The notes under the pieces are model-generated. The model worked only from the letters and a program-made list of their open reading frames with translations, searched no databases and was not told the DNA's origin. From Candidatus Heimdallarchaeum aukensis (GTDB lineage: Archaea; Asgardarchaeota; Heimdallarchaeia; Heimdallarchaeales; Heimdallarchaeaceae): DNA of 64,000 bases. The stretch covers positions 3,017,794 through 3,081,793 of the forward strand of contig CP084166.1 of NCBI GenBank assembly GCA_021513695.1, in the 5' to 3' direction. The position numbers and the translations under genes are program-made. Shown piece after piece: positions 559-31,262 of the stretch. Positions within the stretch are counted from its first letter, which is position 1. Each line of letters starts with the position of its first letter.

Positions 559-1395
559 ATGGAAATAGCAATTGTTACTGATACAAGTAGAGCACTACCT
601 TCCCAATTATATAAATTATACAATGTCTATCCTTTAGGTTATTATTTAGAGGATTCTAAAGGAACGATCTTTGCAGAAAGAGTTAGTGCTCAAGAAGTTC
701 AAACAGATAAACTTCTAACAATTGCTGAAAAAGATAAGAATGCCCAACTTTACTCTCCGACTGTAAAGGACTTTGTAGAGTTATACACCTTTTTAGAGGA
801 AGATTTTGATCATATAATTAGCTTTCATTCTTCGTTATTTACTCCAACTGTTTTTGAAAATGCTATACTTGCAAAAAAGGTAGTTTCTGATATAACAGTT
901 GATGTTCTGGATACTTATTCTTTTGAGTCTTCCTCAGGATTGATTTTAAATCAGCTAGCTAAAAAAATTCAAGATGCAGAATCAATCAATGAAATAAGAA
1001 AAGAAAGTTTTTCTCTTCATGGTAGAATACATAGTCAATTATTAACAAAAAATGACCAATTCAACAAAATAGGATTAAGAAGAGTTACATTCCTTTCAAA
1101 TATAAAATCAGCTTTTGTTCCTTGGAATCTTTATTTGTTTAAACAAAGTAACTGGGATCTAGTCAAAAATTCTCGTTCAATAAAGACTCTACAATCAGAA
1201 ATGGAAACAAGACTAATCTCTCTTGAAAAATCCAAAGATTTGAAATTTTGTTATTATTCATCTTCAAAAAGACTGAACAAAGAAGTAAAAGAACTTCTAG
1301 AAAAATTGGATAATTTATATGTTGAAGAAACTCCTCAAACTTTAGTCGCCTATTTTCTCACTTCAGAATACTCAATGAATATTTCTGTTCTTTAA
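559..1395 (+). CDS. DegV-family protein (divergent paralogue)
   Basis: N-terminus MEIAIVTDTSRAL resembles the DegV MKIAIVTDSx motif, and the length is about 280 aa. The GGR motif seen in the other three paralogues is missing. Start chosen at the internal Met that matches the family N-terminus. Confidence 0.45.
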   Translation: MEIAIVTDTSRALPSQLYKLYNVYPLGYYLEDSKGTIFAERVSAQEVQTDKLLTIAEKDKNAQLYSPTVKDFVELYTFLEEDFDHIISFHSSLFTPTVFENAILAKKVVSDITVDVLDTYSFESSSGLILNQLAKKIQDAESINEIRKESFSLHGRIHSQLLTKNDQFNKIGLRRVTFLSNIKSAFVPWNLYLFKQSNWDLVKNSRSIKTLQSEMETRLISLEKSKDLKFCYYSSSKRLNKEVKELLEKLDNLYVEETPQTLVAYFLTSEYSMNISVL

Positions 1396-2189
1396 CTCTC
1401 TTCTTTTACTGTTTTTATTCTATAAAAATTTGAAACATTTTCTGTTGTAATATCTGCCAGTTTTTTTACATCCACTTTAATTAATTCTGCAGCTTTTTTT
1501 GTTGATATTGCTATGGCAGAAGGTTCGTTTTTTTCTCCTTTTCTTAAGCTATGATATGGACTATCAGTTTCAAACATTAACTGAGTTTCCGGAATCAAAG
1601 ACAAGATTTTTTGGAAATTTTTTCTGTAAACTAAACTTGTTGGGACTGTAACAAACCAACCATTATCAACTACTCTTTCAATCTCATTTTCTGTTCCTGT
1701 AAAACAGTGCATTAAAACGTTTTCTAGATTATATGATTCAAGAATATTGATTGCATCTGTTTCTGCAGCTCTCGAATGGATTACAATTGGTTTGTTATTT
1801 TTATTTGCGAGTTCAATAAGACGTCTGAAGAAAACTTTCTGTTCTTTTCTTTTTTCTTCTTCTTTAACCCAATAGTAATCTAATCCAATTTCACCTATAG
1901 CTACTATAAATTCTGAATTTTTTAATAAAAATTCTTCAATTTTCTTGAAGTTTTCTTCTTCTACTTCTGTTGGTTGCATTCCAATGGTTAGATGAGTCCC
2001 ATAGTTTTTTGTTAAAAATACTCCGAATTCAAAGTGATGAGGGCTTAAAATACTATTTATAATTATTTCAACGTTATTTGATCTAGCTCTTTGAACAATT
2101 TCTGGTATACTTTTTTTTGAGAAAAAAGGAGGGTAAAGGTGACAATGAGCATCTGCAAAAATTATTTTCTGATTTGACATATAATTCAC
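1392..2189 (-). CDS. tatD: TatD-family metal-dependent hydrolase/DNase
   Basis: N-terminal IFADAHCHL motif, length 265 aa, and an IGEIGLD-like motif, all typical of TatD. Confidence 0.8.
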   Translation of the reverse strand: MNYMSNQKIIFADAHCHLYPPFFSKKSIPEIVQRARSNNVEIIINSILSPHHFEFGVFLTKNYGTHLTIGMQPTEVEEENFKKIEEFLLKNSEFIVAIGEIGLDYYWVKEEEKRKEQKVFFRRLIELANKNNKPIVIHSRAAETDAINILESYNLENVLMHCFTGTENEIERVVDNGWFVTVPTSLVYRKNFQKILSLIPETQLMFETDSPYHSLRKGEKNEPSAIAISTKKAAELIKVDVKKLADITTENVSNFYRIKTVKEES

Positions 2190-3166
2190 TATTTACAAAT
2201 TATATCTTTTAGCTTCTTGAGCATCTTTATTCCGCGAATTTCTTGGTTGAAAGCTTCAACAGTAGTTACATCATGGTTTGGAAAAGCTTGTTTGATGTAC
2301 TCTAAATTAGCTAAATGCTCTTTTCTTCTATTCATACAGTAAGGACAACTTTTATTTTCTGGATTAATTTGATTGACAACTATTTCTTTATTCGGAATAT
2401 AATGTTCTTTTAATTCTTCAAATAGTCGTTCTGACTCAAAAATAGACATAAGTGTAGGAATTCCAACAATTATAAATTGTGTCTTTTCATCATCCATTAG
2501 TGTTTCTCTGGCTATAAGTATCTTCTCTTTTAATTTTTCTAAGTTCTCTATTGTTCTATCTTTTTCTACATTTCCGCCAAAAAGAGATTTAATCATTGCC
2601 ATTGTATTAGAAATGAAGGTTTTCATTTTCAACATTCTACCAATAAAAGAATCTAAAAATTCTGGAATGTTGAGTAATCTCAATGTATGTCCTGTGGGCG
2701 CAGTGTCAAGTACAATCGTGTCGAATTCTTCATTATCCGCATACTCAAGGATTTTAGCAAAAGATAGAGCTTCATCCATTCCTGGTGGAGGGATTGATTT
2801 TAGATCTTGATCTATTCCCTTCATTGCTTCCATTCCTGGAATAGACATCAAACTAGAGAATTGATCTGCATCAAAGGAATCTCCTAATGCTTTTGTTAGT
2901 TCATCTCCTGATGATTCTGGGTTGATTTCTAAAGCGTACAATTCTCCTTTTACACCTTTAACTTTAGTTACAGTTCCAGATGAAAAATCCAAATCAAAAG
3001 AATCTGAAATGCTGTGTGCAGGGTCTGTTGAAACAAGTAAAGTTTTTTTACCTTTTTCAGCTAAAGCAATAGAAATTGCAGAAGCTATAGAAGTTTTCCC
3101 TACTCCTCCTTTTCCCCCTACCAAAATGAACTTTAGGTCCTTCTCTAATAAATCCTTGATAGTCAT
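2189..3166 (-). CDS. ArsA/Get3-family ATPase (TRC40/Get3 homologue)
   Basis: Deviant Walker A GGKGGVGKT, the signature TDPAHS motif, and a CPYC pair near the C-terminus as in Get3 zinc-linked dimers. Confidence 0.8.
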   Translation of the reverse strand: MTIKDLLEKDLKFILVGGKGGVGKTSIASAISIALAEKGKKTLLVSTDPAHSISDSFDLDFSSGTVTKVKGVKGELYALEINPESSGDELTKALGDSFDADQFSSLMSIPGMEAMKGIDQDLKSIPPPGMDEALSFAKILEYADNEEFDTIVLDTAPTGHTLRLLNIPEFLDSFIGRMLKMKTFISNTMAMIKSLFGGNVEKDRTIENLEKLKEKILIARETLMDDEKTQFIIVGIPTLMSIFESERLFEELKEHYIPNKEIVVNQINPENKSCPYCMNRRKEHLANLEYIKQAFPNHDVTTVEAFNQEIRGIKMLKKLKDIICK

Positions 3167-3280
3167 TAATATAGAAAAAAATCGACTCTTATTTAAAGAT
3201 AAATATTAGTGATTAATAGAACTTTTAAGTAAAATAAAAAAAACTCTCGAAAAATAAAAATAGATAAAGAAAACAAATTT

Positions 3281-4045
3281 TTACTTTCTACGTTTTCTTT
3301 TCTTAATTTTTCTTTTTTGTTCTTGTTTTGTTTTATGTGGTTTTTTAACCAATGGGGAAATCTTTCTTGAACTTCTTCTTCGTTTATGAACTTTCTGTAT
3401 AGCGAATAAATCTACAATGATTATAGTAGTGAATACTCCAACGATACCCAAGACAAAATAGAATAAGTTTAACCATTTTTCCGAGTCTATAACTTCTACA
3501 TTTTCAGGTAATACGACATTTAACGAGTATCTTTGAGAATAAGACTTGTACATAACACTATTTTCATCATAGTATTTTATCTCTGTGGCTTCTAAGGTAA
3601 AGTTTCCTTCAAGTAAAGGTTGGATGTAATAAGTATAAACGAAGCTAGCATTTATTTCAACTTGTATATACTTTTGCTCTGTCAAATTAAAAGTTGAAAC
3701 TGCCCACTCTTCAAAGCTTGGTTCTGTAATAGAAAGATTATACGCTGTTCTGTTTCCAATATTGGTTATATTTAGGTCAATTCTAATCCATTGCAAAGGC
3801 TCAAGTTCAGTAACGTTAATTACCTTCTTTATAGCTAAAAGTGGTCTGCTAGGTAATGTATCATTAGTGTCATTTAATGCTAAATATGGTCGATAGTAAT
3901 TTCTCTCTGGTTCCTGAATTTTTTGAATCTGGTCATTGTTGTTTATTACACTGTTGGAACCACTAATAAATGATGAATTTACAGCTAAAACTAACATCAC
4001 AACTAATACAAATCGTAAATACTTTCTTCCGGGCATATGTTTCAT
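3281..4045 (-). CDS. secreted/membrane-anchored protein rich in N-glycosylation sequons, with a C-terminal TM helix and polybasic tail (hypothetical)
   Basis: N-terminal hydrophobic signal-like segment. More than 10 N-x-S/T sequons. C-terminal hydrophobic helix followed by a tail that includes KRRRSSRK and KRKIKKRKRRK. Confidence 0.5.
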   Translation of the reverse strand: MKHMPGRKYLRFVLVVMLVLAVNSSFISGSNSVINNNDQIQKIQEPERNYYRPYLALNDTNDTLPSRPLLAIKKVINVTELEPLQWIRIDLNITNIGNRTAYNLSITEPSFEEWAVSTFNLTEQKYIQVEINASFVYTYYIQPLLEGNFTLEATEIKYYDENSVMYKSYSQRYSLNVVLPENVEVIDSEKWLNLFYFVLGIVGVFTTIIIVDLFAIQKVHKRRRSSRKISPLVKKPHKTKQEQKRKIKKRKRRK

Positions 4046-4243
4046 TATCCTTTTATTGCTTATGGAGCATGAAATAATCTCGTTTAAATATTTTGCTCTT
4101 GGAACTAGAAATAAGCTAGCGCTTTATTTACTTATCGCCTATTTTTTTCCTTATATTTAGATGTTATTTTAAGAATTCTAGGTAACAATATTTTATGGTA
4201 AAAGAACATAGTAACAATTATAAAAAGGTGGATTTGTTTTAAA

Positions 4244-5143
4244 TTGAGAGCAATGACTGTTAAAATTCTATGTGATACTAGTGCAGATTTGAATCTTCCC
4301 ACTGATCAAACAATCTATGACAAATATAACATTGGAACTTTTCCCATGCATGTTATTTTTGGAACGAATGATTATAGAGAATTAGTTGACATAAAAACTT
4401 CTGAATTCAGGAAAAAGATCTATGAAACAGATGTTCATCCCACCACTTCTCAACCAACACAATTTGATATCTTAACACAATTTGAGAAGTTTGGAAAAGA
4501 CTACGATGAAATCATATCATTTCATATCTCATCAAAATTAAGTGGGAGCTATGCTAATGCAAAAATAGCTAAAAAAATGTATGAGAAATCAAATAAAGAA
4601 CATGCTAAAGTGTATTTAGTTGATAGTTTATTAGCTAGTTCAGCTTTTGGACTTGTAGTTATTAAAGCCGCTAAGTTAGCAGAAGAAGGTCTGTCTGGAC
4701 AAGAAATAGTTGATAAAATAAACGATTGGAAAAAAAATAATATAGTTGTTTATTTCACTGTAGAGAACTTAGAGTGGCTTTATCGCGGAGGTAGATTAAG
4801 TAAAACTAAGTACTATTTAGGTAGCATGTTAAACAAAAAACCAGTTTTAACATTAGTTGATGGAGAAATTGTGAGTGCAAAGACTGTTACAGGAATAGAA
4901 AAAACTTTTGATACTATAATTGACCTTGCCTTTAAACGCTTTCCAGAAGTTGAGCAGGAGAGAATAATGTACAATATTATCGAATTTGATTACAAAGATG
5001 TAGTAGATGATGTAATTCAGAAAACGAAAAACAAGTATCCTAATGCTAAAGAAGGAAAAGTGTTTGAAATGGGAGGAACAATTGCAGCTCATACTGGTCC
5101 AAAAACTCTAGGGTTTATTGTTACCAAAGATTTTGAATTTTAA
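4244..5143 (+). CDS. DegV-family fatty-acid-binding protein
   Basis: MTVKILCDTSADL N-terminus and a YRGGRLSK motif, length about 300 aa. Paralogous to the next two ORFs. Confidence 0.75.
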   Translation: MRAMTVKILCDTSADLNLPTDQTIYDKYNIGTFPMHVIFGTNDYRELVDIKTSEFRKKIYETDVHPTTSQPTQFDILTQFEKFGKDYDEIISFHISSKLSGSYANAKIAKKMYEKSNKEHAKVYLVDSLLASSAFGLVVIKAAKLAEEGLSGQEIVDKINDWKKNNIVVYFTVENLEWLYRGGRLSKTKYYLGSMLNKKPVLTLVDGEIVSAKTVTGIEKTFDTIIDLAFKRFPEVEQERIMYNIIEFDYKDVVDDVIQKTKNKYPNAKEGKVFEMGGTIAAHTGPKTLGFIVTKDFEF

Positions 5144-5210
5144 TTTCTTTTTTTTCTTTTCTTTTTTGGAAAAAGATTTATTCAACACATTTTAAGTTAG
5201 TTTGAAATAG

Positions 5211-6119
5211 ATGACAATAAAGATTTTGTGTGATACTTCAGCTGATCTTGTCTTACATCCAAATAAGCCACTGTATGACTCGCTAGGTGTTGGAATTCTT
5301 CCCATGAAAGTTTTTTTTGATGAGAATGATGTTTTTTTAGAGCAAAAAAATATTAGTAACATACAGTTTTATGAGTTAATAAGACTCTCCCAGACCCAAC
5401 CTAAAACCTCTCCTCCTTCAGCAGATGATATATTTAAAGAATTTCAAAGATATGGAAGAGAATATGATGAACTAATTTCTTTACATATTTCTAAAGATTT
5501 AAGTCATACATATTTTAACGCTGTTGAAGCAAAGAAGAGATACTTGAAAACTGAATCAAATCCAGCCAAAATAAATATAATTCATAGTGGTGTTGCAAGT
5601 TTAGCTCTGGGAAAACTTGTATTGAAAGCTGTTGAACTTAAAAATAAAGGTTTTGAAACTTCTGAAATTATAAAACAACTTTATTCTTGGAAAGAAAATA
5701 ATGTTAAAGCAGCTTTTACTGTTAGAGATTTAAATTGGTTATATGAAGGAGGAAGACTTACAAGGTCACAGAAAACAATAGGTACAATATTAAATAAAAA
5801 ACCTGTTCTTACTTTTGATCATGGAAAAATCAATGTAATTGGTTATTCAACAGGATTGGAAAGAACATTGAGATTTATGGTTAAATATCTCTTATCACAG
5901 ATGGAGGAGGAGAAAATAAACAAACTTACCTTGTCTTTTATCACAGCACAGAATTTTGGTTTAATAGATGACTTCTCAAGAGTAATAAAGAAAGAATTTC
6001 CGAAAATTAATTTAGGTCCTAAATTTGAGCTAGGTGCAACAATTACTAGCCATACAGGAATGGAGACAATAGGTTTTGTAATTTCAAGTAATCTTAAAAT
6101 AGATCCTTTAATAAAATAA
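5211..6119 (+). CDS. DegV-family fatty-acid-binding protein
   Basis: MTIKILCDTSADL N-terminus and a YEGGRLTRSQK motif. Tandem paralogue. Confidence 0.75.
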   Translation: MTIKILCDTSADLVLHPNKPLYDSLGVGILPMKVFFDENDVFLEQKNISNIQFYELIRLSQTQPKTSPPSADDIFKEFQRYGREYDELISLHISKDLSHTYFNAVEAKKRYLKTESNPAKINIIHSGVASLALGKLVLKAVELKNKGFETSEIIKQLYSWKENNVKAAFTVRDLNWLYEGGRLTRSQKTIGTILNKKPVLTFDHGKINVIGYSTGLERTLRFMVKYLLSQMEEEKINKLTLSFITAQNFGLIDDFSRVIKKEFPKINLGPKFELGATITSHTGMETIGFVISSNLKIDPLIK

Positions 6120-6242
6120 TTAACTTAACTTTAATGTTTTCTTACGTGTTGGCTATATTTGCCACTATAAAACAAGAATCTTTAAAGATTTTTTTCTTAA
6201 AAAAGATTTAAAAAAAAGCGTTTTATATACAATTGAACACAA

Positions 6243-7133
6243 ATGACAGTAAAAATAATGACCGATAGTGCAGCAGATATTCCCGAATATCTCCTAAAGG
6301 AGTATGATATCTCTACAGTCCCCACAGTAATCAGATTTGGTGATGATGTCTATTATGAAAACAAAGATTTGACTTTGGATCAATACTATGAACTATTTCA
6401 TTCTCATCCAGAACCACCTCAAACAGCTAATCCTACTTTAGCTGATGACTTTGAATTATACAAAAAACTAGGAGAAGAAGCTGATGAAGTGATAAATATT
6501 GTTATTTCTAGCGGTATTTCTGGTTCATTCAACACTTCTAATGCTGCTTTGAAAATGTATGAAAAGAGAGTAAAAGATGGTGCAAAAGTATATGTCTTTG
6601 ATTCACATTTTGCTACAATGGGTATAGGTGTCCAAGCTTTAAAGGCTTCAGAGATGGCTAAAGAAGGACATAATGCAGCTGAAATATTGGCAATGTTAGA
6701 AGAATACAGAGACAAATTAGCTGTTGCTTTCACAGTAGATAATTTAAAGTATCTCCATAGAGGAGGAAGATTGTCAAAATCTAAATTTTGGATAGCCAAA
6801 CTAGCTGACTTACATCCTGTGATTACTTTTATTGATGGAAAAATGGAAGTTGAAAAGACTTCTAGAGGTTATGATAATGCAATGGAAAAAGCTTTTGATC
6901 TATCTTGGGAAAAAACGAATAAAGCTAAGAAATTCAATGCCTATATCTGTTATGGAGAAAATAAAGAACACGCTCTATACATGAGAGATTATATCCAAGA
7001 TAAAGTAGATGCAGAATTTAATATCGAGATATATCAAGTAGGAGCAACAATAATTACCCATACAGGTCCAGAAGTAAGTGGAATACTGCTTGATCCTTAT
7101 AATGAAAAACTCTATAAAGCATCAGAAAAATAG
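6243..7133 (+). CDS. DegV-family fatty-acid-binding protein
   Basis: MTVKIMTDSAADIP N-terminus and a HRGGRLSKSK motif. Tandem paralogue. Confidence 0.75.
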   Translation: MTVKIMTDSAADIPEYLLKEYDISTVPTVIRFGDDVYYENKDLTLDQYYELFHSHPEPPQTANPTLADDFELYKKLGEEADEVINIVISSGISGSFNTSNAALKMYEKRVKDGAKVYVFDSHFATMGIGVQALKASEMAKEGHNAAEILAMLEEYRDKLAVAFTVDNLKYLHRGGRLSKSKFWIAKLADLHPVITFIDGKMEVEKTSRGYDNAMEKAFDLSWEKTNKAKKFNAYICYGENKEHALYMRDYIQDKVDAEFNIEIYQVGATIITHTGPEVSGILLDPYNEKLYKASEK

Positions 7134-7134
7134 G

Positions 7135-7872
7135 ATGGATTGTATGATATCCTTTGATGCTTTTTTCTTTGACTTAGATGGGACTTTAATAGACTTTAAT
7201 CCCAATAATTTTGTAAAAATCTATTTAGGAGCTGCTGCAAAGTATTTTAAGGATTTGATACCTGATAGTGACTATTTTATTCAATCAATATTAGATTCAA
7301 CAAATGTAATGGAAATGGCTGAAACTCCAAAGAAACTAGCTTTATACGACTTTTTTGATGATTTTTGTCAAAAGTTCGATCCTGAATGTTCAACTATAAT
7401 TCAGAGATTTAGAAATTTCTATAATGAAGGTTTTAATGTAGTAGAGAAAATTATAAGACCTATTCCTTACGCTGAAACTGTTCTTTCATTTATTAGAGAC
7501 AATTATCCAAAAAGCAAAATTGTTCTAGCAACAAATCCGGTTTTTCCAGAAGTAGCTATTATTAAAAGATTGAACTGGGGGGGATTGTCAGAAAATCTTT
7601 TTGATTACATTACCCATGCTGAAAATAGCTATTATTGTAAAGGTTCTTTAAATTATTGGATAGACTTAGCAAAAAAACTTGATGTGAAACCTGAGAAAAC
7701 ATTGGTTGTAGGAAATGATGGAGAACGTGATATGATTGCCAAAAAAGCTGGTTTCAAGACATTCTTTTTGACACAAACTGCTGAAAATGAGCACTCCATA
7801 GAGAAATACAAACCGGACTACAAAGGGAGCTTGGAATCACTATTAAATTTATTAAATGAAAAGAAAGACTAA
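7135..7872 (+). CDS. HAD-superfamily hydrolase
   Basis: FFFDLDGTLIDF motif I lies close to the chosen start (MDCMISFDAFFFDLDG). The C-terminal VGNDGERDM resembles HAD motif IV. The gene follows immediately after the third tandem DegV. Confidence 0.7.
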   Translation: MDCMISFDAFFFDLDGTLIDFNPNNFVKIYLGAAAKYFKDLIPDSDYFIQSILDSTNVMEMAETPKKLALYDFFDDFCQKFDPECSTIIQRFRNFYNEGFNVVEKIIRPIPYAETVLSFIRDNYPKSKIVLATNPVFPEVAIIKRLNWGGLSENLFDYITHAENSYYCKGSLNYWIDLAKKLDVKPEKTLVVGNDGERDMIAKKAGFKTFFLTQTAENEHSIEKYKPDYKGSLESLLNLLNEKKD

Positions 7873-7918
7873 TAAGTTGTAAAAATAGCTTTTTCTTAGT
7901 TTATAAAATTATGATTGC

Positions 7919-7989
7919 ATTCGCCTATGATGATGCAACGGTCTGCGATTCGAAAGAAAATGAACGCTGATGGGCGGGCTGAGGCGAAT
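7919..7989 (+). ncRNA. candidate C/D box sRNA (2'-O-methylation guide)
   Basis: GC-rich 71-nt island in an AT-rich intergenic region. The 5' ATTCGCC pairs with the 3' GGCGAAT to form a 7-bp terminal stem. A C box ATGATGA lies directly after the 5' stem and a D box CTGA directly before the 3' stem. The C-to-D span is 56 nt, typical for archaeal C/D sRNAs. An internal TGATGG could be the C' box. The internal D' box is degenerate. Confidence 0.4.
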
Positions 7990-8046
7990 TAAATATTTTC
8001 TTTAATTAAAAAAAGAAAGTAAATTGATTTTGTAAAAGAAATTTTC

Positions 8047-9750
8047 TTATTCTTTTACTGCTTTAATAACTTCTTTGTATTTGTAGAAGGCTAGTCTTTT
8101 GTGGCCATTTTCTGCTACTAAACCGTTTAAATTAGCAGTAATAGTTCTATCCATCAAAGGATCACATATGAAACCAGTTATCTTCTGGTTATTTACCACT
8201 ATTTCCAGCTGTCTAGCTAGGGTTCCTGCTTGAATTCTTTCTCCATACATCATAGGTGAAAAACTTGTTGAACTAATCCACACAGTCTTATTAGCTTGTA
8301 CAGTTATATTCAGGTATTCATCGAAATTGAGGTCTCTATCTTGATAAACATAAATGTTGATTATTGCTAAATCAATAGTCGTAGAATTCCATAAATTATC
8401 GAACAATCCGCTATCAATATCATCTAAGGTTACAGAAACTGCAACTTTTGTTTTATTAGAAAGTGAATGAATTAAGTTAGCAGTATTATTTATTGCTTGT
8501 GTCCAATCGTTATTTGTTATAGTTTCTTCAGGATTCATGAAATAAGTTTGAAAAACAATTGGTTGAGGATAGATTACAAGATAATCTGGTTCATAATTTT
8601 CAACTATCATTTGAGCCTCCATTTCTATTGTATTACTGTAATTTGCAAATGACTCATAGGGATAGCTCCATGTAGCATTTCCATAGGCAAAAAGAGCAAT
8701 TTTCAATCCTTCTGATTTAAGAGCATTGAGCATATTACCAAAAGATGTTTGATTTGCTAGAATAATATCAGTTAACACATCAATAGATACTGTATCTACT
8801 CCTAATTCTCTTATAAGATCAAGTTCTAGTGAAAAAATTTCTTCATAGTTTGATGGTAAAAAGGTTTGAAAGCTTCCAGTTCTAAGTGAAACAGCAAAAC
8901 TAAAGTCTTCTCTTTGTATGTATGTTGGTTGATAATTTTTAGCAGTATATTGACTTAAAGATGATAGCACTCCCACTCCAATCATGCTAAATATTATTAA
9001 GAACAGGACAATAAAAACAAAAATACCTTTTACTCCATTACTAAGAAAAGTCCCTATTCCTCTTTTTTCTTTCTTTTCTTGTTCTTTTTCTATTCTTTCA
9101 AGAAAAACAGTACTTTTCTTTCTTGAAACTTTTTCTCCTTTTTTTTCTTGAGAAACAGCTTTTTTAGAAATTTGCTTCTTTTCTTCATCTACACTTTTTA
9201 TTTTTCCTTTTTCAAAAAGATCAATAGGTATTGCTATCGGAATCAATATAAATAGTGGATACCAATAAGCTGTTCCTCCTGTAAAGAACAGAGCTTGAAG
9301 TAATCCATATGAGATAGAAGGAATTGTTAATATCCAATTTAGAAAACGAGGAAGGTTTAATACGGTATAAGAAGCAATTACGTTTAATAATATTAGCGTT
9401 GAATATAAAGCCATAAAACTGAAAATTATTCCTCCCATACGCTTTAGAAAATCTGTTTCACTCTTGAAAATATAGACAGTAGCGATAATGTTGTTTACGC
9501 ACAAGAAAAGAAAGCCAAAAAATCCAAGAAAGCCTGTAGACGGTAAATATAATCTTATGAACCATATAAAAGAAGATAGAGTTCCGATTGAAATCAATGC
9601 AGATGAGATTAATGACCAAATAAACTGTTTATCTCTTTTCTTTCTTGAAAGATTCTTGTAAAGTGTTTTTACTACTATTACCATATTAAAAATAAATGCG
9701 AGAAATATTAATACTATCGCACCATTTGTCCCAAGTAAAGCTGCCATCAT
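8047..9750 (-). CDS. polytopic membrane protein with a large C-terminal extracytoplasmic domain (possible glycoside-hydrolase-like TIM barrel), hypothetical
   Basis: About 9 hydrophobic helices in the N-terminal 250 aa, then a lysine/glutamate-rich linker and a roughly 300-aa domain with many N-x-S/T sequons. No confident family assignment. Confidence 0.45.
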   Translation of the reverse strand: MMAALLGTNGAIVLIFLAFIFNMVIVVKTLYKNLSRKKRDKQFIWSLISSALISIGTLSSFIWFIRLYLPSTGFLGFFGFLFLCVNNIIATVYIFKSETDFLKRMGGIIFSFMALYSTLILLNVIASYTVLNLPRFLNWILTIPSISYGLLQALFFTGGTAYWYPLFILIPIAIPIDLFEKGKIKSVDEEKKQISKKAVSQEKKGEKVSRKKSTVFLERIEKEQEKKEKRGIGTFLSNGVKGIFVFIVLFLIIFSMIGVGVLSSLSQYTAKNYQPTYIQREDFSFAVSLRTGSFQTFLPSNYEEIFSLELDLIRELGVDTVSIDVLTDIILANQTSFGNMLNALKSEGLKIALFAYGNATWSYPYESFANYSNTIEMEAQMIVENYEPDYLVIYPQPIVFQTYFMNPEETITNNDWTQAINNTANLIHSLSNKTKVAVSVTLDDIDSGLFDNLWNSTTIDLAIINIYVYQDRDLNFDEYLNITVQANKTVWISSTSFSPMMYGERIQAGTLARQLEIVVNNQKITGFICDPLMDRTITANLNGLVAENGHKRLAFYKYKEVIKAVKE

Positions 9751-9854
9751 TTTGTTTTTTGGTGGATATCTATTAAAATGTTGGGTTTTGCTTCATATTT
9801 AGCTTTTCAGAAAATTTTGGTGTTTAAATAATATGGTGACAGAGTACACTGAAA

Positions 9855-10229
9855 GTGTTAACTATGTTCACTTATGAGCTAGAGGACGAATACTTAACAT
9901 TCATCAAAGAGAGCATAAAGGAGCATATATTTCAGTTACTCGATGAAAATAATGGAAAAATATCGTTAATGAAATTATTTGAAAAAATGATACACATAAA
10001 TAATCATTATTTGGCACAGAAATTAAGAATAGATGCGGCATTACATGAATTAGAATTGCAAGGGATAATTGAAATAAAAAATAAGCAAATAAGAAGGTTA
10101 TCAATGGGTGTATTTGATGAAACTGGCTTTAAAGAAGAATATGTAAAAAACTTTTACGAAAAGAGGAAAAAGGATGAAGAAATAAGGAGAATGATTAGAG
10201 CTCTTAGTCAAACTATACTTTCAGAATAA
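9855..10229 (+). CDS. hypothetical protein (possible winged-helix domain)
   Basis: 124-aa ORF with a typical codon pattern. A helix-rich region is followed by a basic C-terminus. First gene of a co-directional three-gene cluster. Confidence 0.4.
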   Translation: MLTMFTYELEDEYLTFIKESIKEHIFQLLDENNGKISLMKLFEKMIHINNHYLAQKLRIDAALHELELQGIIEIKNKQIRRLSMGVFDETGFKEEYVKNFYEKRKKDEEIRRMIRALSQTILSE

Positions 10230-10278
10230 TTTTTACTAAAAGTTTTTATTTTGAAATCAGTAATAGTTCTATGATACT

Positions 10279-11157
10279 ATGTCCGAAACAAATATACCTC
10301 GAATTGTTCTGGGTTCTGTATTGTATCCCTATTTTGAGCGCATCCCACAGGATCACATACTAAGAAACAAAGAAGAACTTGTTAAGTTGGTTGAGCGGTG
10401 TTATCATGCAGGAGCAAAAGCGTTTTTATTTTATCTTTATAACAAAGAAATTGTTGAAATAGCAAACAGTATTACTGAAAGTATTCCTGATATTTTGTCA
10501 ATGTTTCTCATAAAGTTTGACAACATGGATTACATATTAAACCTTCTTAAAGAACTCAAGAAAAAGCCCTATATTCTATTTTTGTCTTCTGAAATAAGTG
10601 ATCAGAGAGACTCAGAACTTATACAACGGTTTAGGAAAGCTTTGAGCAAACATGCTGAACATATAGGCATATATTCAAGAGAGCCAATAGGCACAGTTTC
10701 CCAGTTAATTACAAGTAATGGGGATATTGAGCATTTTCTAATACCTTTTAATTTGTTAGGTTATGGTGTCCAAAATAGAGCTTTACTTGAGATGATTGTT
10801 AACTCTTCTGAAAATATTTACTATAGCTCTAATCCCGTAGCTGATGGTAAACTAAAAGTAAGGCAGGCTTTAGAATATATTTCGAATCATAATGTCAGAG
10901 GAATTTTAGTAGAATTAGAAGACGAAGAAGACATGTTAGAAACAATAAAGTACGGGAGATATTTCTTAGAAACAAAAGATTTCTTACAAATAACGCTTGA
11001 ATTTGAAGATATTACAGATGTATGTGAGTATTGTGGAATAGGAATGGAAAGATATTATCCACCAAGCAAGAGTGGAGGAAGTTACTTCTACTGTCCTTCA
11101 TGTGGACATACAAAACAAATAACAGAAGTAACATACCAAGAGGAAACAGAAAAATAA
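10279..11157 (+). CDS. hypothetical protein with C-terminal zinc ribbon
   Basis: 292-aa ORF ending in CEYCG...(17)...CPSCGH, a 4-Cys zinc ribbon. Confidence 0.45.
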   Translation: MSETNIPRIVLGSVLYPYFERIPQDHILRNKEELVKLVERCYHAGAKAFLFYLYNKEIVEIANSITESIPDILSMFLIKFDNMDYILNLLKELKKKPYILFLSSEISDQRDSELIQRFRKALSKHAEHIGIYSREPIGTVSQLITSNGDIEHFLIPFNLLGYGVQNRALLEMIVNSSENIYYSSNPVADGKLKVRQALEYISNHNVRGILVELEDEEDMLETIKYGRYFLETKDFLQITLEFEDITDVCEYCGIGMERYYPPSKSGGSYFYCPSCGHTKQITEVTYQEETEK

Positions 11158-11399
11158 TTTCAATTGGAAAAAATAAAAACAAAGATAAAACTTGAGTTAA
11201 GAAATAGTAAAGTAACTTTTATTTAATTAGCAAAGATATCTATTCTTAAAGATAATATTACTGTTATCACTTTAAAATATATTTTTGTAATTTTCAAAAA
11301 AATAGAAACGATTATCTATGTTATTAGCTGAACTTCAATATCTGACTAATTGATTATATTAATAAAGTACAGTGTTTTCTCTTTGTTAGATAGGAAAGA

Positions 11400-11999
11400 G
11401 TGTTGATACGTATGGCTAGATGTAAATATTGTAACAAAATAATTCCCGATGAAGCTGAATTTTGTCCTTACTGCGGAAAAAAGAAGCCTATAAGAAAAAT
11501 TGTGGGTGAAATCGAAGACATAACAAAAAAAGTTAGAGAAAAAATCGAAAAAAGAATTCCCACTATAAGGAAACAAGCTTTAGAAATACTAGACAGATTG
11601 TCATCTAAAGCAAAACAAGCTTCTCTTCCAGATTTTGTGGATAGAACAAAGGTTATCTCAATTCTTAATGATTTGAAAGCTAAATTAGATACTGAAACTG
11701 ATCAATCCAAGATACAAGAATACTCTGAATGGGCTAATTTGATTGAGCAGACGATTAGTGGAGAAAATTGTATAATTTGTTATCAACCATTTGATATTCA
11801 TAAAGATGGTCATTTAGACGTCTCTCTCTGCCCTTCATGTCATTATGCCGCTCACGTTAATCATTTTGAAGCTTGGTTAGACAAAAAAGCTGTATGTCCA
11901 ATATGTAAGGCTTCAATATCTAAAAATCAACTAGTTCGAGGGTATATTCAACATAAAGAAGGTGAAATTGTTTTTACTTCTTCAGAAAAACAATTTTAA
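11400..11999 (+). CDS. zinc-ribbon plus RING-like (cross-brace) zinc-finger protein
   Basis: N-terminus CKYCN...(10)...CPYCG is a zinc ribbon. C-terminus CIICYQPFDIHKDGHLDVSLCPSCHYAAHVNHFEAWLDKKAVCPICK has the spacing C-x2-C-x13-C-x2-C-H-x3-H-x2-H-x10-C-x2-C, consistent with a RING-H2-like domain. Confidence 0.55.
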   Translation: MLIRMARCKYCNKIIPDEAEFCPYCGKKKPIRKIVGEIEDITKKVREKIEKRIPTIRKQALEILDRLSSKAKQASLPDFVDRTKVISILNDLKAKLDTETDQSKIQEYSEWANLIEQTISGENCIICYQPFDIHKDGHLDVSLCPSCHYAAHVNHFEAWLDKKAVCPICKASISKNQLVRGYIQHKEGEIVFTSSEKQF

Positions 12000-12022
12000 A
12001 TCCTCTTTTTTTTATAGTTTTA

Positions 12023-17822: not shown

Positions 17823-19322
17823 TCACTTAATCCAACTTTTACTCCTTTTTACGGCCTCGTGCCATTTTTCTAGCATCTTGTCTTTTTTGTCGGCATCTAG
17901 GTGAGGAGTGAATTCAATATCAATACTAAAATTCTTTTCGATATCTGTTAAATTCTCCCAATATTCGACTGCTAATCCAGCTAGGTAAGCAGCTCCTAGG
18001 GCTGTAGTCTCCTTCACTAGTGGGCGTTGAACAACAGTTTGAGAAATATCAGATTGGAACTGGAGAAGAGGATCGCAATTTGTTACTCCTCCATCGACTC
18101 GAAGAACAGGAATATCTTTTCCAGAATCCTTCTTCATTGCGTCTATAACATCTTGAGATTGAAAAACAATTGATTCTAGTGCTGCACGTATAATGTGGTT
18201 GCTTGTAGTAGCTTGGGTTAAACCTATGATTATTCCTCTAGCAAATGAGTCCCAGTATGGAGCACCTAAACCAACAAAAGCAGGCACCAAATAAACTCCT
18301 TCAGTCGTCGGAGTTCGATTCATTACTTCTGTAGTTTGTTTTACATCTGGAAGAATACCTATTTTATTCTTTAACCAGTTTAATAGTGCACCAGTGATAA
18401 ATACACTCCCTTCAAGAGCATAAGTAATATTGTCATTATCCAACTTCCATGCGATAGTTGACAATAATCCATTTTTTGAGAAAACTATATCTTCTCCTGT
18501 ATTTTGTAGGAGAAAGTTACCTGTTCCATAAGTATTTTTAACAGAACCTGGTTGAAAACATGTTTGTCCAAAAAGTGCAGCTTGTTGGTCTCCAGCAGCA
18601 CCAGAAACAGGAATAGAAACAGAAAAAAGATCTTTTTTTGTTTCACCATAGGTATTCTTATCACTTGAAGGTTTAATATCTGGAAGAGCATAAATTATGT
18701 CTTCTGGTAAACCAATTGTTTCTATAAGCTCATCGTCCCAAGTCCCTTTGTGAATATTCATAAGTAAAGTTCTTGATGCATTAGAATAGTCTGTAACGTG
18801 ATTTCCTGTTAGGTTATAAATTAACCAAGAGTCAATAGTTCCAATTTGTAGTTTTCCGCTGTTTAACTTATCTCTTACTTTAGGAACATTTTCAATCAAC
18901 CATTTTATTTTTGTTCCAGAGAAATATGGGTCTAGAACCAATCCAGTCTTCTCTTTAAACAATTCAGAATAGTCCTTCCTTAGGTCTTCACAAAAGTTAG
19001 CTGTTCTCCTACACTGCCAAACAATAGCATTGTACAAAGGCTTACCGTTTTCTTTATCCCAAACAACAATAGTTTCTCTCTGATTTGTTATTCCAATTGC
19101 AGAAATTTGAGAGAAATCTATTTTTTCCTTGTTTACTGCGTCTATAATTACCTTTAAAGAATTTTTTAAAATTTCTTCCGGATTGTGTTCAACCCAACCT
19201 TCATTCGGAAAAATCTGTTGATGCTCTAAATAGGAGTTAGAAACCTCCAAACCTTTCTTATTAAATATTATTGCTCTAGTTCCCGTTGTTCCTTGATCGA
19301 TTGCTAAGATATAATTATTCAT
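17823..19322 (-). CDS. glpK: glycerol kinase
   Basis: ILAIDQGTTGTRAIIFN N-terminus and FGGY-family sugar kinase motifs, length 499 aa. Confidence 0.9.
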   Translation of the reverse strand: MNNYILAIDQGTTGTRAIIFNKKGLEVSNSYLEHQQIFPNEGWVEHNPEEILKNSLKVIIDAVNKEKIDFSQISAIGITNQRETIVVWDKENGKPLYNAIVWQCRRTANFCEDLRKDYSELFKEKTGLVLDPYFSGTKIKWLIENVPKVRDKLNSGKLQIGTIDSWLIYNLTGNHVTDYSNASRTLLMNIHKGTWDDELIETIGLPEDIIYALPDIKPSSDKNTYGETKKDLFSVSIPVSGAAGDQQAALFGQTCFQPGSVKNTYGTGNFLLQNTGEDIVFSKNGLLSTIAWKLDNDNITYALEGSVFITGALLNWLKNKIGILPDVKQTTEVMNRTPTTEGVYLVPAFVGLGAPYWDSFARGIIIGLTQATTSNHIIRAALESIVFQSQDVIDAMKKDSGKDIPVLRVDGGVTNCDPLLQFQSDISQTVVQRPLVKETTALGAAYLAGLAVEYWENLTDIEKNFSIDIEFTPHLDADKKDKMLEKWHEAVKRSKSWIK

Positions 19323-23199: not shown

Positions 23200-23329
23200 A
23201 TAATATAATCCTCTTTTTTTTTATTTTCTTTTTTTTGAAGTTTTTAAAGAATAATCAAATTAAGTTAGCACAAATAACAGCAAAGTTAAATATGACTACC
23301 TTTGAGAATAAAGTAAGATTGGTGAGATT

Positions 23330-24286: not shown

Positions 24287-24416
24287 TCCTTTTTTTATTT
24301 TACTGTTTATTTTTTGTTTTGAGAATAGTAATTTTGTATTTTCATTTAAAAAAATCATTTTTTAAGAACAATAAATCTTTAATATTGAAAAGTTGTAAAT
24401 GAATGTGTTGATATAA

Positions 24417-25639: not shown

Positions 25640-25697
25640 TATCAAATTTTTCTTCAATCAATAATCTTTATTTATCACAATATAAACAATAAATGCA

Positions 25698-26393: not shown

Positions 26394-26406
26394 AAAGAGA
26401 AAAAAT

Positions 26407-26706
26407 TTAACTCATTTTAAATTCTACACCGAATCCTCCATGAGGATAGTGCCAATCAACACTTCCGTGAGGACAAACAAGCCTACATGTTCCACATTCA
26501 ACACAAGGTGCATAATCAAACGTTACAGGTACATCTCCATCTTCAACTAGTTTATAACATTCTGCAGGGCAACCATATACACAGTCATATGTCTTACATT
26601 TAGTTTTGCATATCTCCTCGTTTATGGTAATGTGAGCAAAATTTTTGTCTGTAACATACTTTGTTAATGCAAGTTTTTCTTCAATTTTTATTGGATTTTC
26701 TACCAT
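26407..26706 (-). CDS. fixX: ferredoxin-like protein FixX (copy 1)
   Basis: 99 aa. A CVECGTCRLVCP cluster. Immediately downstream of fixC. Confidence 0.75.
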   Translation of the reverse strand: MVENPIKIEEKLALTKYVTDKNFAHITINEEICKTKCKTYDCVYGCPAECYKLVEDGDVPVTFDYAPCVECGTCRLVCPHGSVDWHYPHGGFGVEFKMS

Positions 26707-26718
26707 TCTTTTCTCCTC

Positions 26719-31249: not shown

Positions 31250-31262
31250 AAAGAGAAAAAAT

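What the first reader, a model, noticed from the sequence alone, without database searches (positions are those of the whole stretch)
559..7133. Four DegV-family (fatty-acid-binding, FakB-like) paralogues in an archaeal genome, three of them in tandem
ORFs at 4244, 5211 and 6243 share the DegV N-terminal (K/I)I(L/M)xD(T/S)(S/A)AD motif and the (Y/H)xGGRL(S/T)(K/R) motif. The ORF at 559 is a more divergent member. DegV/FakB proteins bind acyl chains and are mostly bacterial. A four-member expansion in an archaeon, which would normally have isoprenoid ether lipids, bears on the debated fatty-acid metabolism of Asgard-like archaea. No FakA-like kinase is present in the window. The tandem array is followed directly by a HAD phosphatase-family gene.
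Basis: partly seen in the sequence, partly recalled or inferred. Interest (0 to 1): 0.6.

Follow-up and report, generated by a model that had tools for sequence, protein, structure and literature searches.

The report
Fatty-acid-binding DegV gene set in Heimdallarchaeum
An Asgard archaeon (genus Heimdallarchaeum) carries four bacterial-type DegV/FakB genes: three keep all residues that hold a fatty acid's acid group and one is a degenerate copy. The set, with a co-transcribed phosphatase gene, is conserved across its family, but the kinase that uses such proteins in bacteria was not found.

Summary
ORFs 4253-5143 (D1), 5211-6119 (D2) and 6243-7133 (D3) are full-length DegV proteins (Pfam 172-256 bits). 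ORF 559-1395 (D0) is a divergent DegV-fold protein. The window comes from a Heimdallarchaeum species, 94% identical in D3 protein to Ca. H. endolithica, where these genes are already annotated "DegV family protein".

In about 25 Heimdallarchaeota species the order D0 ... D1-D3-HAD is conserved. D2 is a fast-evolving, genus-specific copy of D1.

D1, D2 and D3 keep the complete fatty-acid carboxylate network of bacterial FakB (Thr62, Ser95, Arg173, His270). The D3 model superposes on S. aureus FakB1 (TM 0.88-0.91). Only D3 keeps the Arg/Lys used for FakA and membrane docking. D0 has lost the carboxylate site and forms a tiny Heimdall-only subfamily.

No FakA, PlsX, PlsY or PlsC gene lies in the window or in 594 kb of related loci. 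I could not search whole genomes.

Most likely these are fatty-acid carriers acquired anciently from bacteria. Their activating partner is unresolved. This is a new member of a known family, of moderate interest for the archaeal/eukaryotic lipid question.

The parts
559..1395 (+). D0: a 278-aa divergent DegV-fold protein with a degenerate carboxylate site, forming a Heimdall-only subfamily.
   Evidence: - Pfam DegV scores 53.8 bits on residues 3-161 only.
- A profile of 9 orthologues hits S. aureus FakB2 (4x9x) at E 2e-11 over residues 4-237.
- The AF2 model has pLDDT 81. All 45 significant Foldseek PDB hits are DegV/FakB (TM 0.67-0.78), and FakA_C is not among them.
- SaFakB1 T62 is L/I/F, S95 is an invariant Pro, and H270 is Y/H/R/S/C. 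R205 is an invariant Arg.
- Only 4 representatives score E<1e-30 among 1.84 billion.
4253..5143 (+). D1: a 296-aa canonical DegV/FakB-like protein with a TTSQP motif.
   Evidence: - Pfam scores 226 bits and TIGR00762 240 bits.
- T, S, GGR-Arg and His are invariant in 25/25 D1-type sequences. The FakA/membrane-docking Arg is replaced by Ser/Thr in 24/25.
- Orthologues are 44-58% identical in Heimdallarchaeota. The next-best hits are about 35% identical, from Clostridium and Chloroflexota.
5211..6119 (+). D2: a 302-aa fast-evolving duplicate of D1, found only in Heimdallarchaeum.
   Evidence: - Pfam scores 171.8 bits.
- It is 38.5% identical to D1.
- It is present only in the window, its identical contig and H. 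endolithica, and absent from the other species.
- It nests inside the D1 clade on a long branch (D1+D2 bootstrap 87/100).
- It keeps T, S, R and H but has TSPP for TSQP, LSH for LSG and HS for DS.
6243..7133 (+). D3: a 296-aa FakB-like protein with an invariant T-A-N-P motif. It is the only tandem paralogue that keeps the docking Arg and the sentinel Trp.
   Evidence: - Pfam scores 256 bits.
- By sequence, B. subtilis DegV (3fys) matches at E 6e-37.
- The AF2 model has pLDDT 93 and pTM 0.91. It matches S. aureus FakB1-palmitate at TM 0.88-0.91 and rmsd 2.5 A.
- T61, S93, R176 and H273 are invariant. R208 is R/K in 28/28 sequences, and W183 is nearly invariant.
7144..7872 (+). HAD-IA phosphatase-type hydrolase (242 aa), co-directional with D3 and starting 10 nt after its stop.
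   Evidence: - Pfam Hydrolase PF00702 scores 48.5 bits.
- Catalytic motifs are invariant in 17 orthologues: DxDGT, TN, K, GNDxxRD.
- It follows D3 in all 26 loci whose contig extends past D3, usually within 10-20 nt.
- The closest solved relative is the uncharacterised Pyrococcus PH1655, 2hoq.

Best explanation
D1, D2 and D3 are soluble fatty-acid-binding proteins of the bacterial DegV/FakB family. An ancestor of the Heimdallarchaeaceae-type lineage acquired the gene from bacteria, probably once and long ago. It then duplicated into two functional types (D1 and D3) and probably the degenerate type D0, whose placement is unresolved. D2 is a later copy of D1.

**Shown here**
- The family assignment and the fold.
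- Complete conservation of the Thr-Ser-His hydrogen-bond network and the gating Arg that hold a fatty-acid carboxylate in FakB.
- Conservation of the gene set and of the D3-HAD pair in about 25 species.

**Inferred**
- Each protein encloses one long-chain fatty acid in a hydrophobic tunnel and exchanges it at the membrane. D3 keeps the Arg/Lys and Trp that FakB1 uses for membrane docking.
- Each then presents the carboxylate to an activating enzyme.
- The most likely partner (about 45%) is a FakA-type Dak2 kinase encoded elsewhere, acting on D3 to give acyl-phosphate. Next most likely (about 35%) is hand-over to acyl-CoA synthetases for beta-oxidation.
- The co-transcribed HAD enzyme is an active phosphatase that probably acts on a phosphorylated lipid intermediate. 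Its substrate is unknown.
- D0 has lost the carboxylate site. It is more likely an adaptor or regulator, or binds another ligand.

The confidence given (0.7) is for the core claim that D1-D3 are conserved fatty-acid-binding carriers. The identity of the downstream partner is much less certain.
For: - **Family membership.** HMM scores lie far above the cut-offs. D3 matches solved DegV/FakB proteins by sequence at E 6e-37 to 1e-8.
- **Fold.** The D3 model (pLDDT 93) matches FakB1-palmitate at TM 0.88-0.91.
- **Binding site.** Thr62, Ser95, Arg173 and His270 (SaFakB1 numbering; roles from PMC10848957 and PMC8892158) are invariant in all D1-, D2- and D3-type sequences. The tunnel position Ala121 is Ala in D1-D3.
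- **Docking residues.** In D3 the Arg205 equivalent is R/K in 28/28 sequences, and the Trp180 equivalent is nearly invariant.
- **Conserved gene set.** The set D0, D1, D3 and HAD is conserved in 27 loci from about 25 species at 38-62% protein identity.
- **Active HAD.** Its catalytic motifs are invariant.
- **Origin.** D1+D2+D3 group together against the sampled bacteria (62/100). The nearest non-Heimdall relatives are about 35% identical, from Clostridium and Chloroflexota. GC content matches the surrounding genome.
- **Kinase in the lineage.** A COG1461/K07030 (fakA) family of 9 proteins is listed for the Heimdall lineage in the Eme et al. 2023 supplementary table.
- **Possible consumers.** PlsY and PlsC homologues have been reported in some Asgard genomes. 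No archaeal PlsX is known, so a Fak route would be the only known source of acyl-phosphate (PMC6431249, PMC13400652).
Against: - **No partner genes found.** No Dak2/FakA, PlsX, PlsY or PlsC gene lies in the 64-kb window. FakA HMMs found nothing in the window plus 35 loci, 594 kb in all. Those loci are centred on the DegV genes, so this only excludes linkage.
- **Missing acyltransferase.** Wu et al. 2022 report that both Heimdallarchaeum genomes lack the 1-acylglycerol-3-phosphate acyltransferase.
- **Weak kinase record.** The Eme table's second reconstruction gives the fakA-like family about zero copies in the Heimdall and Hod ancestors. My reading of its column names is inferred.
- **Equivalog cut-off.** None of the proteins reaches the NCBIfam FakB1 equivalog cut-off (133-167 against 350 bits).
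- **Interface Arg.** D1 and D2 lack it. In D3 its conservation could reflect membrane docking alone.
- **Synteny is weak support.** Gene order is conserved well beyond this set in the family, so conserved order supports a functional link only weakly.
- **No direct data.** There is no ligand, expression or lipid evidence.
Confidence: 0.7

Rival explanations
1. A complete bacterial-type fatty acid kinase pathway operates. An unlinked FakA phosphorylates fatty acid held by D3 (and perhaps D1 or D2). The acyl-phosphate is used by a PlsY-type acyltransferase to make ester-linked glycerolipids in this archaeon.
For: - D3 keeps every residue known to matter for FakB catalysis and FakA binding: T, S, H, the gating R and the interface R/K.
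- A COG1461/K07030 family exists in the Heimdall lineage.
- PlsY and PlsC homologues are reported in some Asgard genomes, without PlsX.
- PlsC-like K00655 is inferred at about 4 copies in the Heimdall ancestor.
- A bona fide GlpK, which makes G3P, lies 11 kb away.
Against: - No FakA, PlsY or PlsC lies in the window or the DegV-centred loci.
- Heimdallarchaeum is reported to lack PlsC.
- Coleman et al. judged that the archaeal PlsC and PlsY genes are unlikely to act in membrane synthesis.
- Only archaeal lipids were detected in the one cultured Lokiarchaeon, as cited in PMC13400652.
Confidence: 0.3
2. The proteins are FakA-independent carriers. They pick up exogenous or membrane-released free fatty acids and pass them to acyl-CoA synthetases for beta-oxidation or detoxification. 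They act as a cytosolic fatty-acid-binding system in a heterotrophic archaeon.
For: - The binding site is intact but no kinase is linked.
- D1 has lost the FakA-interface Arg yet is strictly conserved.
- Acyl-CoA synthetase families are inferred at 4-7 copies in the Heimdall ancestor.
- ETF alpha/beta and an ETF-QO/FixC-like oxidoreductase, the usual electron acceptors of acyl-CoA dehydrogenases, are in the window.
Against: - I know of no precedent for a DegV protein delivering to an acyl-CoA synthetase.
- This reading does not explain the invariant D3-HAD pairing.
- In bacteria DegV and FakA co-occur (established knowledge, not tested here).
Confidence: 0.25
3. The ligand is not a plain fatty acid. 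It is an archaeal, isoprenoid-derived acid or a phosphorylated lipid, and the D3-HAD pair forms a lipid-phosphate handling unit.
For: - D3 orthologues carry an invariant T-A-N-P in place of the canonical T-S-Q-P next to the carboxylate site.
- D3 is always followed by an active phosphatase-type HAD.
- The host is expected to make isoprenoid lipids.
Against: - The carboxylate-binding network is fully canonical in D1 and D3.
- All solved DegV proteins with ligands hold fatty acids.
- Nothing was found that ties the HAD enzyme to lipids. Its nearest relatives are uncharacterised or sugar-phosphate phosphatases.
Confidence: 0.1
4. The genes are functionless remnants of horizontal transfer, or their clustering is mere inherited synteny.
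For: - Gene order around the set is conserved far beyond it: rSAM, SUI1, TatD, Get3, TRAP-beta, a second HAD, M48 and M24.
- D2 shows relaxed conservation at several family positions.
Against: - Intact full-length ORFs occur in about 25 species at 38-62% identity, with invariant functional residues. That indicates long-term purifying selection.
- The D3-HAD spacing of 10-20 nt is kept throughout.
Confidence: 0.03

Closest known systems
Staphylococcus aureus FakB1/FakB2 and Streptococcus FakB1-3, the fatty-acid-binding subunits of fatty acid kinase
   Same: - The two-domain EDD fold is the same. The D3 model matches at TM 0.88-0.91 and rmsd 2.5 A.
- The Thr-Ser-His-Arg carboxylate site is the same.
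- Several paralogues occur per genome, as in streptococci and enterococci.
- D3 keeps the docking Arg and the sentinel Trp.
   Different: - The host is archaeal, and identity is only 23-26%.
- Scores fall below the FakB1 equivalog cut-off.
- No FakA was found.
- D1 and D2 lack the interface Arg.
- D3 has TANP instead of TSQP.
- The genes are coupled to a HAD gene, which was not seen in the two bacterial loci examined.
Bacillus subtilis DegV (3fys) and Thermus thermophilus DegV (2dt8)
   Same: These are the best sequence matches among solved structures for D3 (E 6e-37 and 6e-33). They are single-domain-architecture DegV proteins that bind fatty acid.
   Different: Those organisms encode FakA (B. 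subtilis YloV; Thermus 7ed6). Here the partner is unknown.
Bacterial Dak2-FakA_M-DegV fusion proteins (about 590-612 aa)
   Same: Their DegV domains are among the best non-family hits of the D0 profile (E 5e-13 to 1e-10).
   Different: They come from bacteria: Spirochaetia, Marinimicrobia, Mcinerneyibacterium and Fictibacillus. They carry the kinase domain in cis. D0 is a stand-alone 278-aa protein without the carboxylate site.
FakA C-terminal domain (PF13684, PDB 6w6b), a DegV-like domain that has lost the carboxylate-stabilising Arg
   Same: Like D0, it has an EDD/DegV-like fold without the canonical fatty-acid carboxylate site.
   Different: D0 gives no PF13684 hit. 6w6b is not among its significant Foldseek matches, whereas all 45 significant matches are FakB/DegV. 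D0 is therefore a degenerate FakB, not a FakA_C.
Heliorhodopsin-associated DegV genes (with DUF2177 and DUF1295) in Firmicutes, Chloroflexi and Actinobacteria
   Same: These are also DegV genes in a context other than the classical fakA neighbourhood, and they have been proposed to act in lipid remodelling.
   Different: No rhodopsin, DUF2177 or DUF1295 gene lies in the window or the related loci.

Membership tests
DegV family (Pfam PF02645 / TIGR00762 / COG1307) | Profile HMM score above the curated cut-off over the full domain | tested here: met
   D1 scores 226 bits, D2 172 and D3 256 on PF02645 (cut-off 27), and 240, 187 and 258 on TIGR00762 (cut-off 99.7). D0 passes Pfam (53.8 bits, N-terminal half only) but fails TIGR00762 (53.2).
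DegV family (Pfam PF02645 / TIGR00762 / COG1307) | Two-domain EDD fold as in solved DegV/FakB structures | tested here: met
   The D3 model (pLDDT 93) matches at TM 0.81-0.91. The D0 model (pLDDT 81) matches at TM 0.67-0.78, and all 45 of its significant hits are DegV/FakB. D1 and D2 were not modelled.
DegV family (Pfam PF02645 / TIGR00762 / COG1307) | Carboxylate-binding network Thr62-Ser95-His270 plus gating Arg173 (SaFakB1 numbering) | tested here: met
   The network is invariant in the D1 (25), D2 (2) and D3 (28) sequences. It is NOT met in D0, which has L/I/F, Pro, a variable residue and Y/H/R/S/C at these positions.
DegV family (Pfam PF02645 / TIGR00762 / COG1307) | A bound long-chain fatty acid in a closed hydrophobic tunnel | not testable with these tools
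   No coordinates or cavity calculation were available, and there is no biochemistry. The only indirect evidence is that tunnel position Ala121 is Ala in D1-D3 but Phe, Leu or Ile in D0.
FakB, the functional subunit of fatty acid kinase | A FakA (Dak2 + middle + C-terminal domain) kinase encoded in the same genome | tested here: inconclusive
   FakA is absent from the window and from the window plus 35 loci, 594 kb in all. Whole genomes could not be searched. A COG1461/K07030 family is listed for the Heimdall lineage in a published table.
FakB, the functional subunit of fatty acid kinase | FakA-interface residues (SaFakB1 Arg205 / SsFakB2 Arg202, and the loop Leu) | tested here: inconclusive
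   In D3 the Arg position is R/K in 28/28 sequences and the first Leu position is L/I. In D1 it is S/T in 24/25, and in D2 it is T. The Arg also serves membrane docking, so its presence does not prove a FakA partner.
FakB, the functional subunit of fatty acid kinase | NCBIfam equivalog NF038249 (FakB1) cut-off | tested here: not met
   Scores are 148, 133 and 167 bits against a cut-off of 350. The model is specific to staphylococcal-type FakB1, so this excludes orthology to FakB1, not FakB-like function.
FakB, the functional subunit of fatty acid kinase | Downstream users of acyl-phosphate (PlsX, PlsY) in the genome | tested here: inconclusive
   None lies in the window. The literature reports PlsY in some Asgard genomes and no archaeal PlsX. 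This genome was not searchable.
FakA C-terminal domain (PF13684), considered for D0 | Profile or structural match to FakA_C better than to FakB | tested here: not met
   D0 gives no PF13684 hit. A profile search of the PDB finds only FakB/DegV. Foldseek finds no 6w6b or 7w7h_A match at E<=1e-3.
HAD superfamily phosphatase (for the gene after D3) | Motifs I-IV: DxDx(T/V), S/T, K, and (G/S)(D/S)x3-4(D/E) | tested here: met
   D10-x-D12-G-T14, T130, K166 and D192-x-x-R-D196 are invariant in 17 orthologues. PF00702 scores 48.5 bits against a cut-off of 26.4. No equivalog cut-off is reached, so the substrate is unknown.

The most novel reading that the evidence does not exclude
Heimdallarchaeaceae run a remodelled fatty-acid activation system built from three specialised DegV proteins and a phosphatase.

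- D3 is the kinase- and membrane-competent carrier.
- D1 is a second carrier with a different partner.
- The degenerate D0 acts as a docking or regulatory subunit, analogous to the ligand-less DegV-like domain of FakA.

The system would supply acyl-phosphate to PlsY-type acyltransferases that lack PlsX. That would be a working route for putting fatty acids into the lipids of the archaeal relatives of eukaryotes.
Probability: 0.1. Interest if true: 0.85.

Novelty: new member of a known kind. Interest (0 to 1): 0.5.

Why it matters
**Background.** Eukaryotes have bacterial-type fatty-acyl ester lipids, but their archaeal relatives are expected to have isoprenoid ether lipids. Whether Asgard archaea handle fatty acids for their membranes is an open question.

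**The gap this touches.** Published surveys found PlsY and PlsC homologues in some Asgard genomes but no PlsX. That leaves no known source of the acyl-phosphate that PlsY needs. A set of FakB-type fatty-acid carriers with intact binding sites, under purifying selection and found throughout a family of Heimdallarchaeota, is the kind of component that could fill this gap.

**Why it is testable.** It is also an easy experimental handle. DegV proteins co-purify with their ligands, so expressing D1 and D3 and reading the bound lipid would show directly which acyl chains these proteins can hold.

**If the answer is ordinary.** If the partner turns out to be ordinary beta-oxidation, the finding is an example of ancient bacterial gene transfer into Asgard metabolism and nothing more.

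Tried and rejected
1. **Split-FakA idea.** I asked whether the conserved 83-aa zinc-ribbon ORF (265-516) plus D0 mimic FakA_M plus FakA_C. Rejected. D0 matches FakB, not FakA_C, by profile and by fold. The zinc-ribbon ORF has no Pfam or NCBIfam hit.
2. **Linked kinase.** I ran a FakA_N HMM built from solved S. aureus, S. suis and T. thermophilus sequences. I also ran a full-length bacterial FakA from L036. Both were searched against all six-frame ORFs of the window and 35 loci. Only noise came back.
3. **Finding a Heimdall FakA in the big protein index.** Not attempted. That tool lists only the best 120 hits, so bacterial FakA would have swamped the list. The single genome-contig scan went to the DegV loci.
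4. **Supplementary tables.** Wu et al. 2022 gave no hits for DegV, COG1307, COG1461, PlsX, PlsY or the KO numbers. Eme et al. 2023 gave one COG1461/K07030 row and PlsC-like rows. The file is truncated, and no DegV or PlsY rows are held. Liu et al. 2021 is not held.
5. **The 567-aa membrane protein as a lipid enzyme.** It has no Pfam, NCBIfam or PDB sequence match. Its consensus motifs look glycosidase-like to me. I treat it as unrelated.
6. **Apparent pseudogenes on contig L002.** The HAD and 567-aa genes look broken there. This comes from six single indels with zero substitutions over 5.8 kb, most likely assembly errors.
7. **Heliorhodopsin, DUF2177 and DUF1295 association.** No such genes lie nearby.
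8. **Dak2-DegV fusions as the missing archaeal kinase.** They are bacterial.
9. **A HAD next to the closest bacterial DegV (L035).** The adjacent 243-aa ORF is not a HAD.

Full report
**What is there.** The region holds four DegV-family genes.
- Three co-directional genes are full-length members. D2 is at 5211-6119 and D3 at 6243-7133.
- Their Pfam PF02645 scores are 226, 172 and 256 bits over the whole model (cut-off 27). All three pass NCBIfam TIGR00762.
- The fourth gene, D0 (559-1395, 278 aa), matches the Pfam model only over its N-terminal half (53.8 bits) and fails the TIGR00762 cut-off.
- Pairwise identities are 38.5% for D1-D2, 31% for D1-D3 and 29% for D2-D3. D0 is about 25% identical to the others over about 150 residues.
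- A HAD-family hydrolase gene starts at 7144, 10 nt after the D3 stop.
- Between D0 and D1, on the other strand, lie TatD, a Get3/ArsA ATPase and a TRAP-beta-like protein.

**Where the window comes from.**
- D3 is 94% identical to a protein annotated "DegV family protein" on the closed 3.33-Mb chromosome of Ca. Heimdallarchaeum endolithica, CP084167.1. That chromosome has the same gene order.
- The exact proteins occur on Logan contigs of runs SRR15988954 and SRR15988958.
- GC content across the genes (0.30-0.32) matches the rest of the window. The genes are therefore not a recent insertion.
- The window is from a second Heimdallarchaeum species. My guess, not tested, is the sister genome from the same study (PMC8813620).

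**How widespread the set is.**
- A scan of one genome per GTDB species, using a D3-orthologue alignment, found 27 loci in about 25 species. All are labelled Heimdallarchaeota or Asgard. One carries a Thorarchaeota label but has the same synteny.
- In essentially all of them the order is: zinc-ribbon ORF, D0, TatD(-), Get3(-), TRAP-beta(-), D1-type, D3-type, HAD, then a roughly 570-aa membrane protein (gene calls in 29-31, 86).
- Protein identities to the window are 38-47% for D0, 46-51% for D1, 51-62% for D3 and 44-53% for HAD.
- D2 occurs only in the two Heimdallarchaeum genomes.
- In a neighbour-joining tree D2 sits inside the D1 clade on a long branch. Bootstrap support is 87/100 for D1+D2, 99/100 for D3 and 100/100 for D0.
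- The ancestral set is therefore three DegV types plus HAD. The "four-member expansion" is that set plus one genus-specific, fast-evolving duplicate.
- A few species (L023, L025, L034) have other local re-duplications.
- Gene order in this family is also conserved outside the set. Synteny alone is thus weak evidence for function. The 10-20 nt D3-HAD spacing, kept in 26 of 26 informative loci, does point to co-transcription.

**Is the fatty-acid site conserved?**
- In solved FakB proteins the fatty-acid carboxylate is held by a Thr62-Ser95-His270 network and gated by Arg173 (S. aureus FakB1 numbering).
- Arg205 and a loop Leu contact FakA. Arg205 and Trp180 also serve membrane docking (PMC10848957, PMC8892158).
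- I aligned the window proteins with solved DegV sequences and with all orthologues recovered from the loci.

| Site (SaFakB1) | D1-type (25) | D2 (2) | D3-type (28) | D0-type (20) |
|---|---|---|---|---|
| Thr62 | invariant T | T | invariant T | L/I/F |
| Ser95 | invariant S | S | invariant S | invariant Pro |
| Arg173 | invariant R | R | invariant R | variable |
| His270 | invariant H | H | invariant H | Y/H/R/S/C |
| Arg205 | Ser/Thr in 24 of 25 | Thr | Arg/Lys in 28 of 28 | invariant Arg |

- D1 carries the canonical TTSQP motif. D3 orthologues carry an invariant T-A-N-P.
- D3 also keeps a nearly invariant Trp seven residues after the gating Arg, as in FakB1.
- Tunnel residue Ala121 is Ala in D1-D3 but Phe, Leu or Ile in D0.
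- The AF2 model of D3 (pLDDT 93, pTM 0.91) superposes on palmitate-bound FakB1 at TM 0.88-0.91 and rmsd 2.5 A.
- The tools give no coordinates, so I could not compute a cavity. The residue evidence is the proxy.

**What D0 is.**
- A profile of nine orthologues matches S. aureus FakB2 (4x9x) over residues 4-237 at E 2e-11.
- Its model has pLDDT 81. The only poorly predicted segment, 174-199, corresponds to the mobile lid region of FakB.
- All 45 significant structural matches of the model are DegV/FakB proteins, and none is FakA_C.
- A full HMMER search of 1.84 billion representative proteins finds only four D0-type representatives at E<1e-30. Three of them are 278 aa and one is a 151-aa fragment. 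The two with a source name (P0068 and P0198) are labelled Heimdallarchaeaceae.
- The next-best hits are ordinary DegV proteins and bacterial Dak2-FakA_M-DegV fusion proteins.
- D0 is therefore a degenerate FakB-fold protein specific to this archaeal lineage, with a strongly conserved N-terminal domain. This is the least ordinary element of the finding.

**Origin.**
- For both D1 and D3 the hit lists drop from Heimdall orthologues (at least 41-44% identity) straight to bacterial DegV proteins. These are at 35% identity or less for D1 and about 31% or less for D3. Those that carry names are from Clostridium, Clostridia, Chloroflexota and Dehalococcoidia.
- No other archaeal lineage appears among the named hits.
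- D1+D2+D3 group together against the sampled bacteria with modest support (62/100). D0 is unplaced.
- An old, probably single, bacterial acquisition followed by duplication is the simplest reading, but it is not proven.

**The partner problem.**
- In bacteria FakB works with FakA. One of the bacterial relatives of D1 that I examined sits in the classical L28-Asp23-FakA-DegV-RecG arrangement.
- No Dak2, FakA, PlsX, PlsY or PlsC gene is in the window.
- FakA HMMs built from solved sequences and from a full-length FakA found nothing in the window plus 35 loci, 594 kb in all.
- These loci are centred on the DegV genes, so only linkage is excluded.
- A supplementary table of Eme et al. 2023 lists a 9-protein COG1461/K07030 (fakA) family, with inferred copies only in Heimdall-lineage ancestors. 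A second reconstruction in the same table gives about zero.
- The same table infers about four PlsC-like acyltransferases in the Heimdall ancestor.
- Coleman et al. 2019 found PlsY and PlsC in some Asgard genomes but no archaeal PlsX.
- Wu et al. 2022 state that both Heimdallarchaeum genomes lack PlsC.
- A full-text search found no paper that discusses DegV or FakB in Asgard archaea.

**The HAD gene.**
- All four HAD catalytic motifs are invariant in 17 orthologues, so it is an active phosphatase-type enzyme.
- Its nearest relatives are uncharacterised archaeal HAD-IA proteins such as PH1655. No equivalog cut-off is reached.
- Its substrate, and any link to a phosphorylated lipid, is inference only.

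**Verdict.**
- The best-supported explanation is a conserved set of fatty-acid-binding carriers of bacterial origin. I put confidence in that core claim at about 0.7.
- The activating partner is undetermined. A FakA-type kinase elsewhere in the genome is the leading guess, and hand-over to acyl-CoA metabolism is second.
- The proteins are already annotated as DegV in public records, so this is a new, undiscussed member of a known family and not a new kind of system.
- Three points go beyond the annotation: the lineage-wide three-type architecture, the degenerate D0 subfamily, and the invariant D3-HAD pairing.
- Interest is moderate. The finding touches the lipid-divide question and offers a cheap, decisive experiment. 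Without the kinase or any lipid data it does not yet change what is known.

Noticed in passing
window 23230-32940: A near-perfect tandem duplication of about 4.86 kb, 98-100% identical. Each copy carries an M24 peptidase, a TPR protein, an unannotated 231-aa ORF and a FixC/ETF-QO-like oxidoreductase. It is either very recent or an assembly artefact.
   Followed up: partly
window 17823-19322 (-): A bona fide glycerol kinase GlpK (TIGR01311 at 684 bits, cut-off 590). It makes sn-glycerol-3-phosphate, the bacterial/eukaryotic lipid backbone. Earlier surveys reported GlpK in only one Asgard genome.
   Followed up: partly
window 26719-28032 (-), 31575-32888 (-), 32941-34717 (-): Genes for electron-transfer flavoprotein alpha and beta lie next to a duplicated FixC/ETF-QO-like flavoprotein. 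This is the usual electron outlet of acyl-CoA dehydrogenases, which may bear on fatty-acid catabolism.
   Followed up: no
window 2189-4045 (-): A Get3/TRC40-type ATPase (TIGR00345 at 275 bits) sits beside a TRAP-beta-like membrane protein (PF05753). Both are eukaryote-like membrane-protein biogenesis factors. They are transcribed divergently from the DegV genes, and their position is conserved in about 25 species.
   Followed up: partly
window 8047-9750 (-): A 567-aa protein with an N-terminal multi-pass membrane region and a large C-terminal domain has no Pfam, NCBIfam or PDB match. In other species it follows the HAD gene on the same strand, and the consensus reads YPEP and WITEFG. I recall these as glycosidase clan-A catalytic motifs. 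In this genus the gene is inverted and both Glu are lost, giving YPQP and WISSTS.
   Followed up: partly
window 52255-55757 (+): An archaeal LonB protease gene contains an intein. It is read as two ORFs that overlap by 7 nt: 705 aa with an AAA N-terminus plus intein, and 463 aa with the remaining AAA, LID and Lon_C domains. This could be a frameshift or an unusual intein arrangement.
   Followed up: no
window 36995-38452 (-) and 38773-39279 (-): A TnpB/Cas12f-like transposon nuclease (TNB domain) lies next to a Ras-family small GTPase.
   Followed up: no
L002 (Logan SRR15988958 contig), equivalent to window 6200-12000: The contig is identical to the window except for six single indels and no substitutions over 5.8 kb. 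The indels break the HAD and 567-aa genes into fragments. This looks like assembly or sequencing error, not pseudogenisation.
   Followed up: yes
L023 7474-10876, L025 3801-6893, L034 3108-5460: Some other Heimdallarchaeota species carry an independent local re-duplication in the order D1, D3 fragment, D1, D3. The DegV array is therefore prone to tandem duplication.
   Followed up: partly
P0201, P0203, P0204, P0212, P0241 (bacterial proteins of 590-601 aa): These are single-chain Dak2 + FakA middle domain + full DegV domain proteins, with kinase and carrier fused. They come from Spirochaetia, Marinimicrobia, Mcinerneyibacterium and Fictibacillus, and rank among the best non-family hits of the D0 profile.
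   Followed up: partly
P0211 (367 aa): A MerR DNA-binding domain is fused to the N-terminal half of a DegV domain. This suggests that DegV-like modules are also used as ligand sensors in transcription factors.
   Followed up: no
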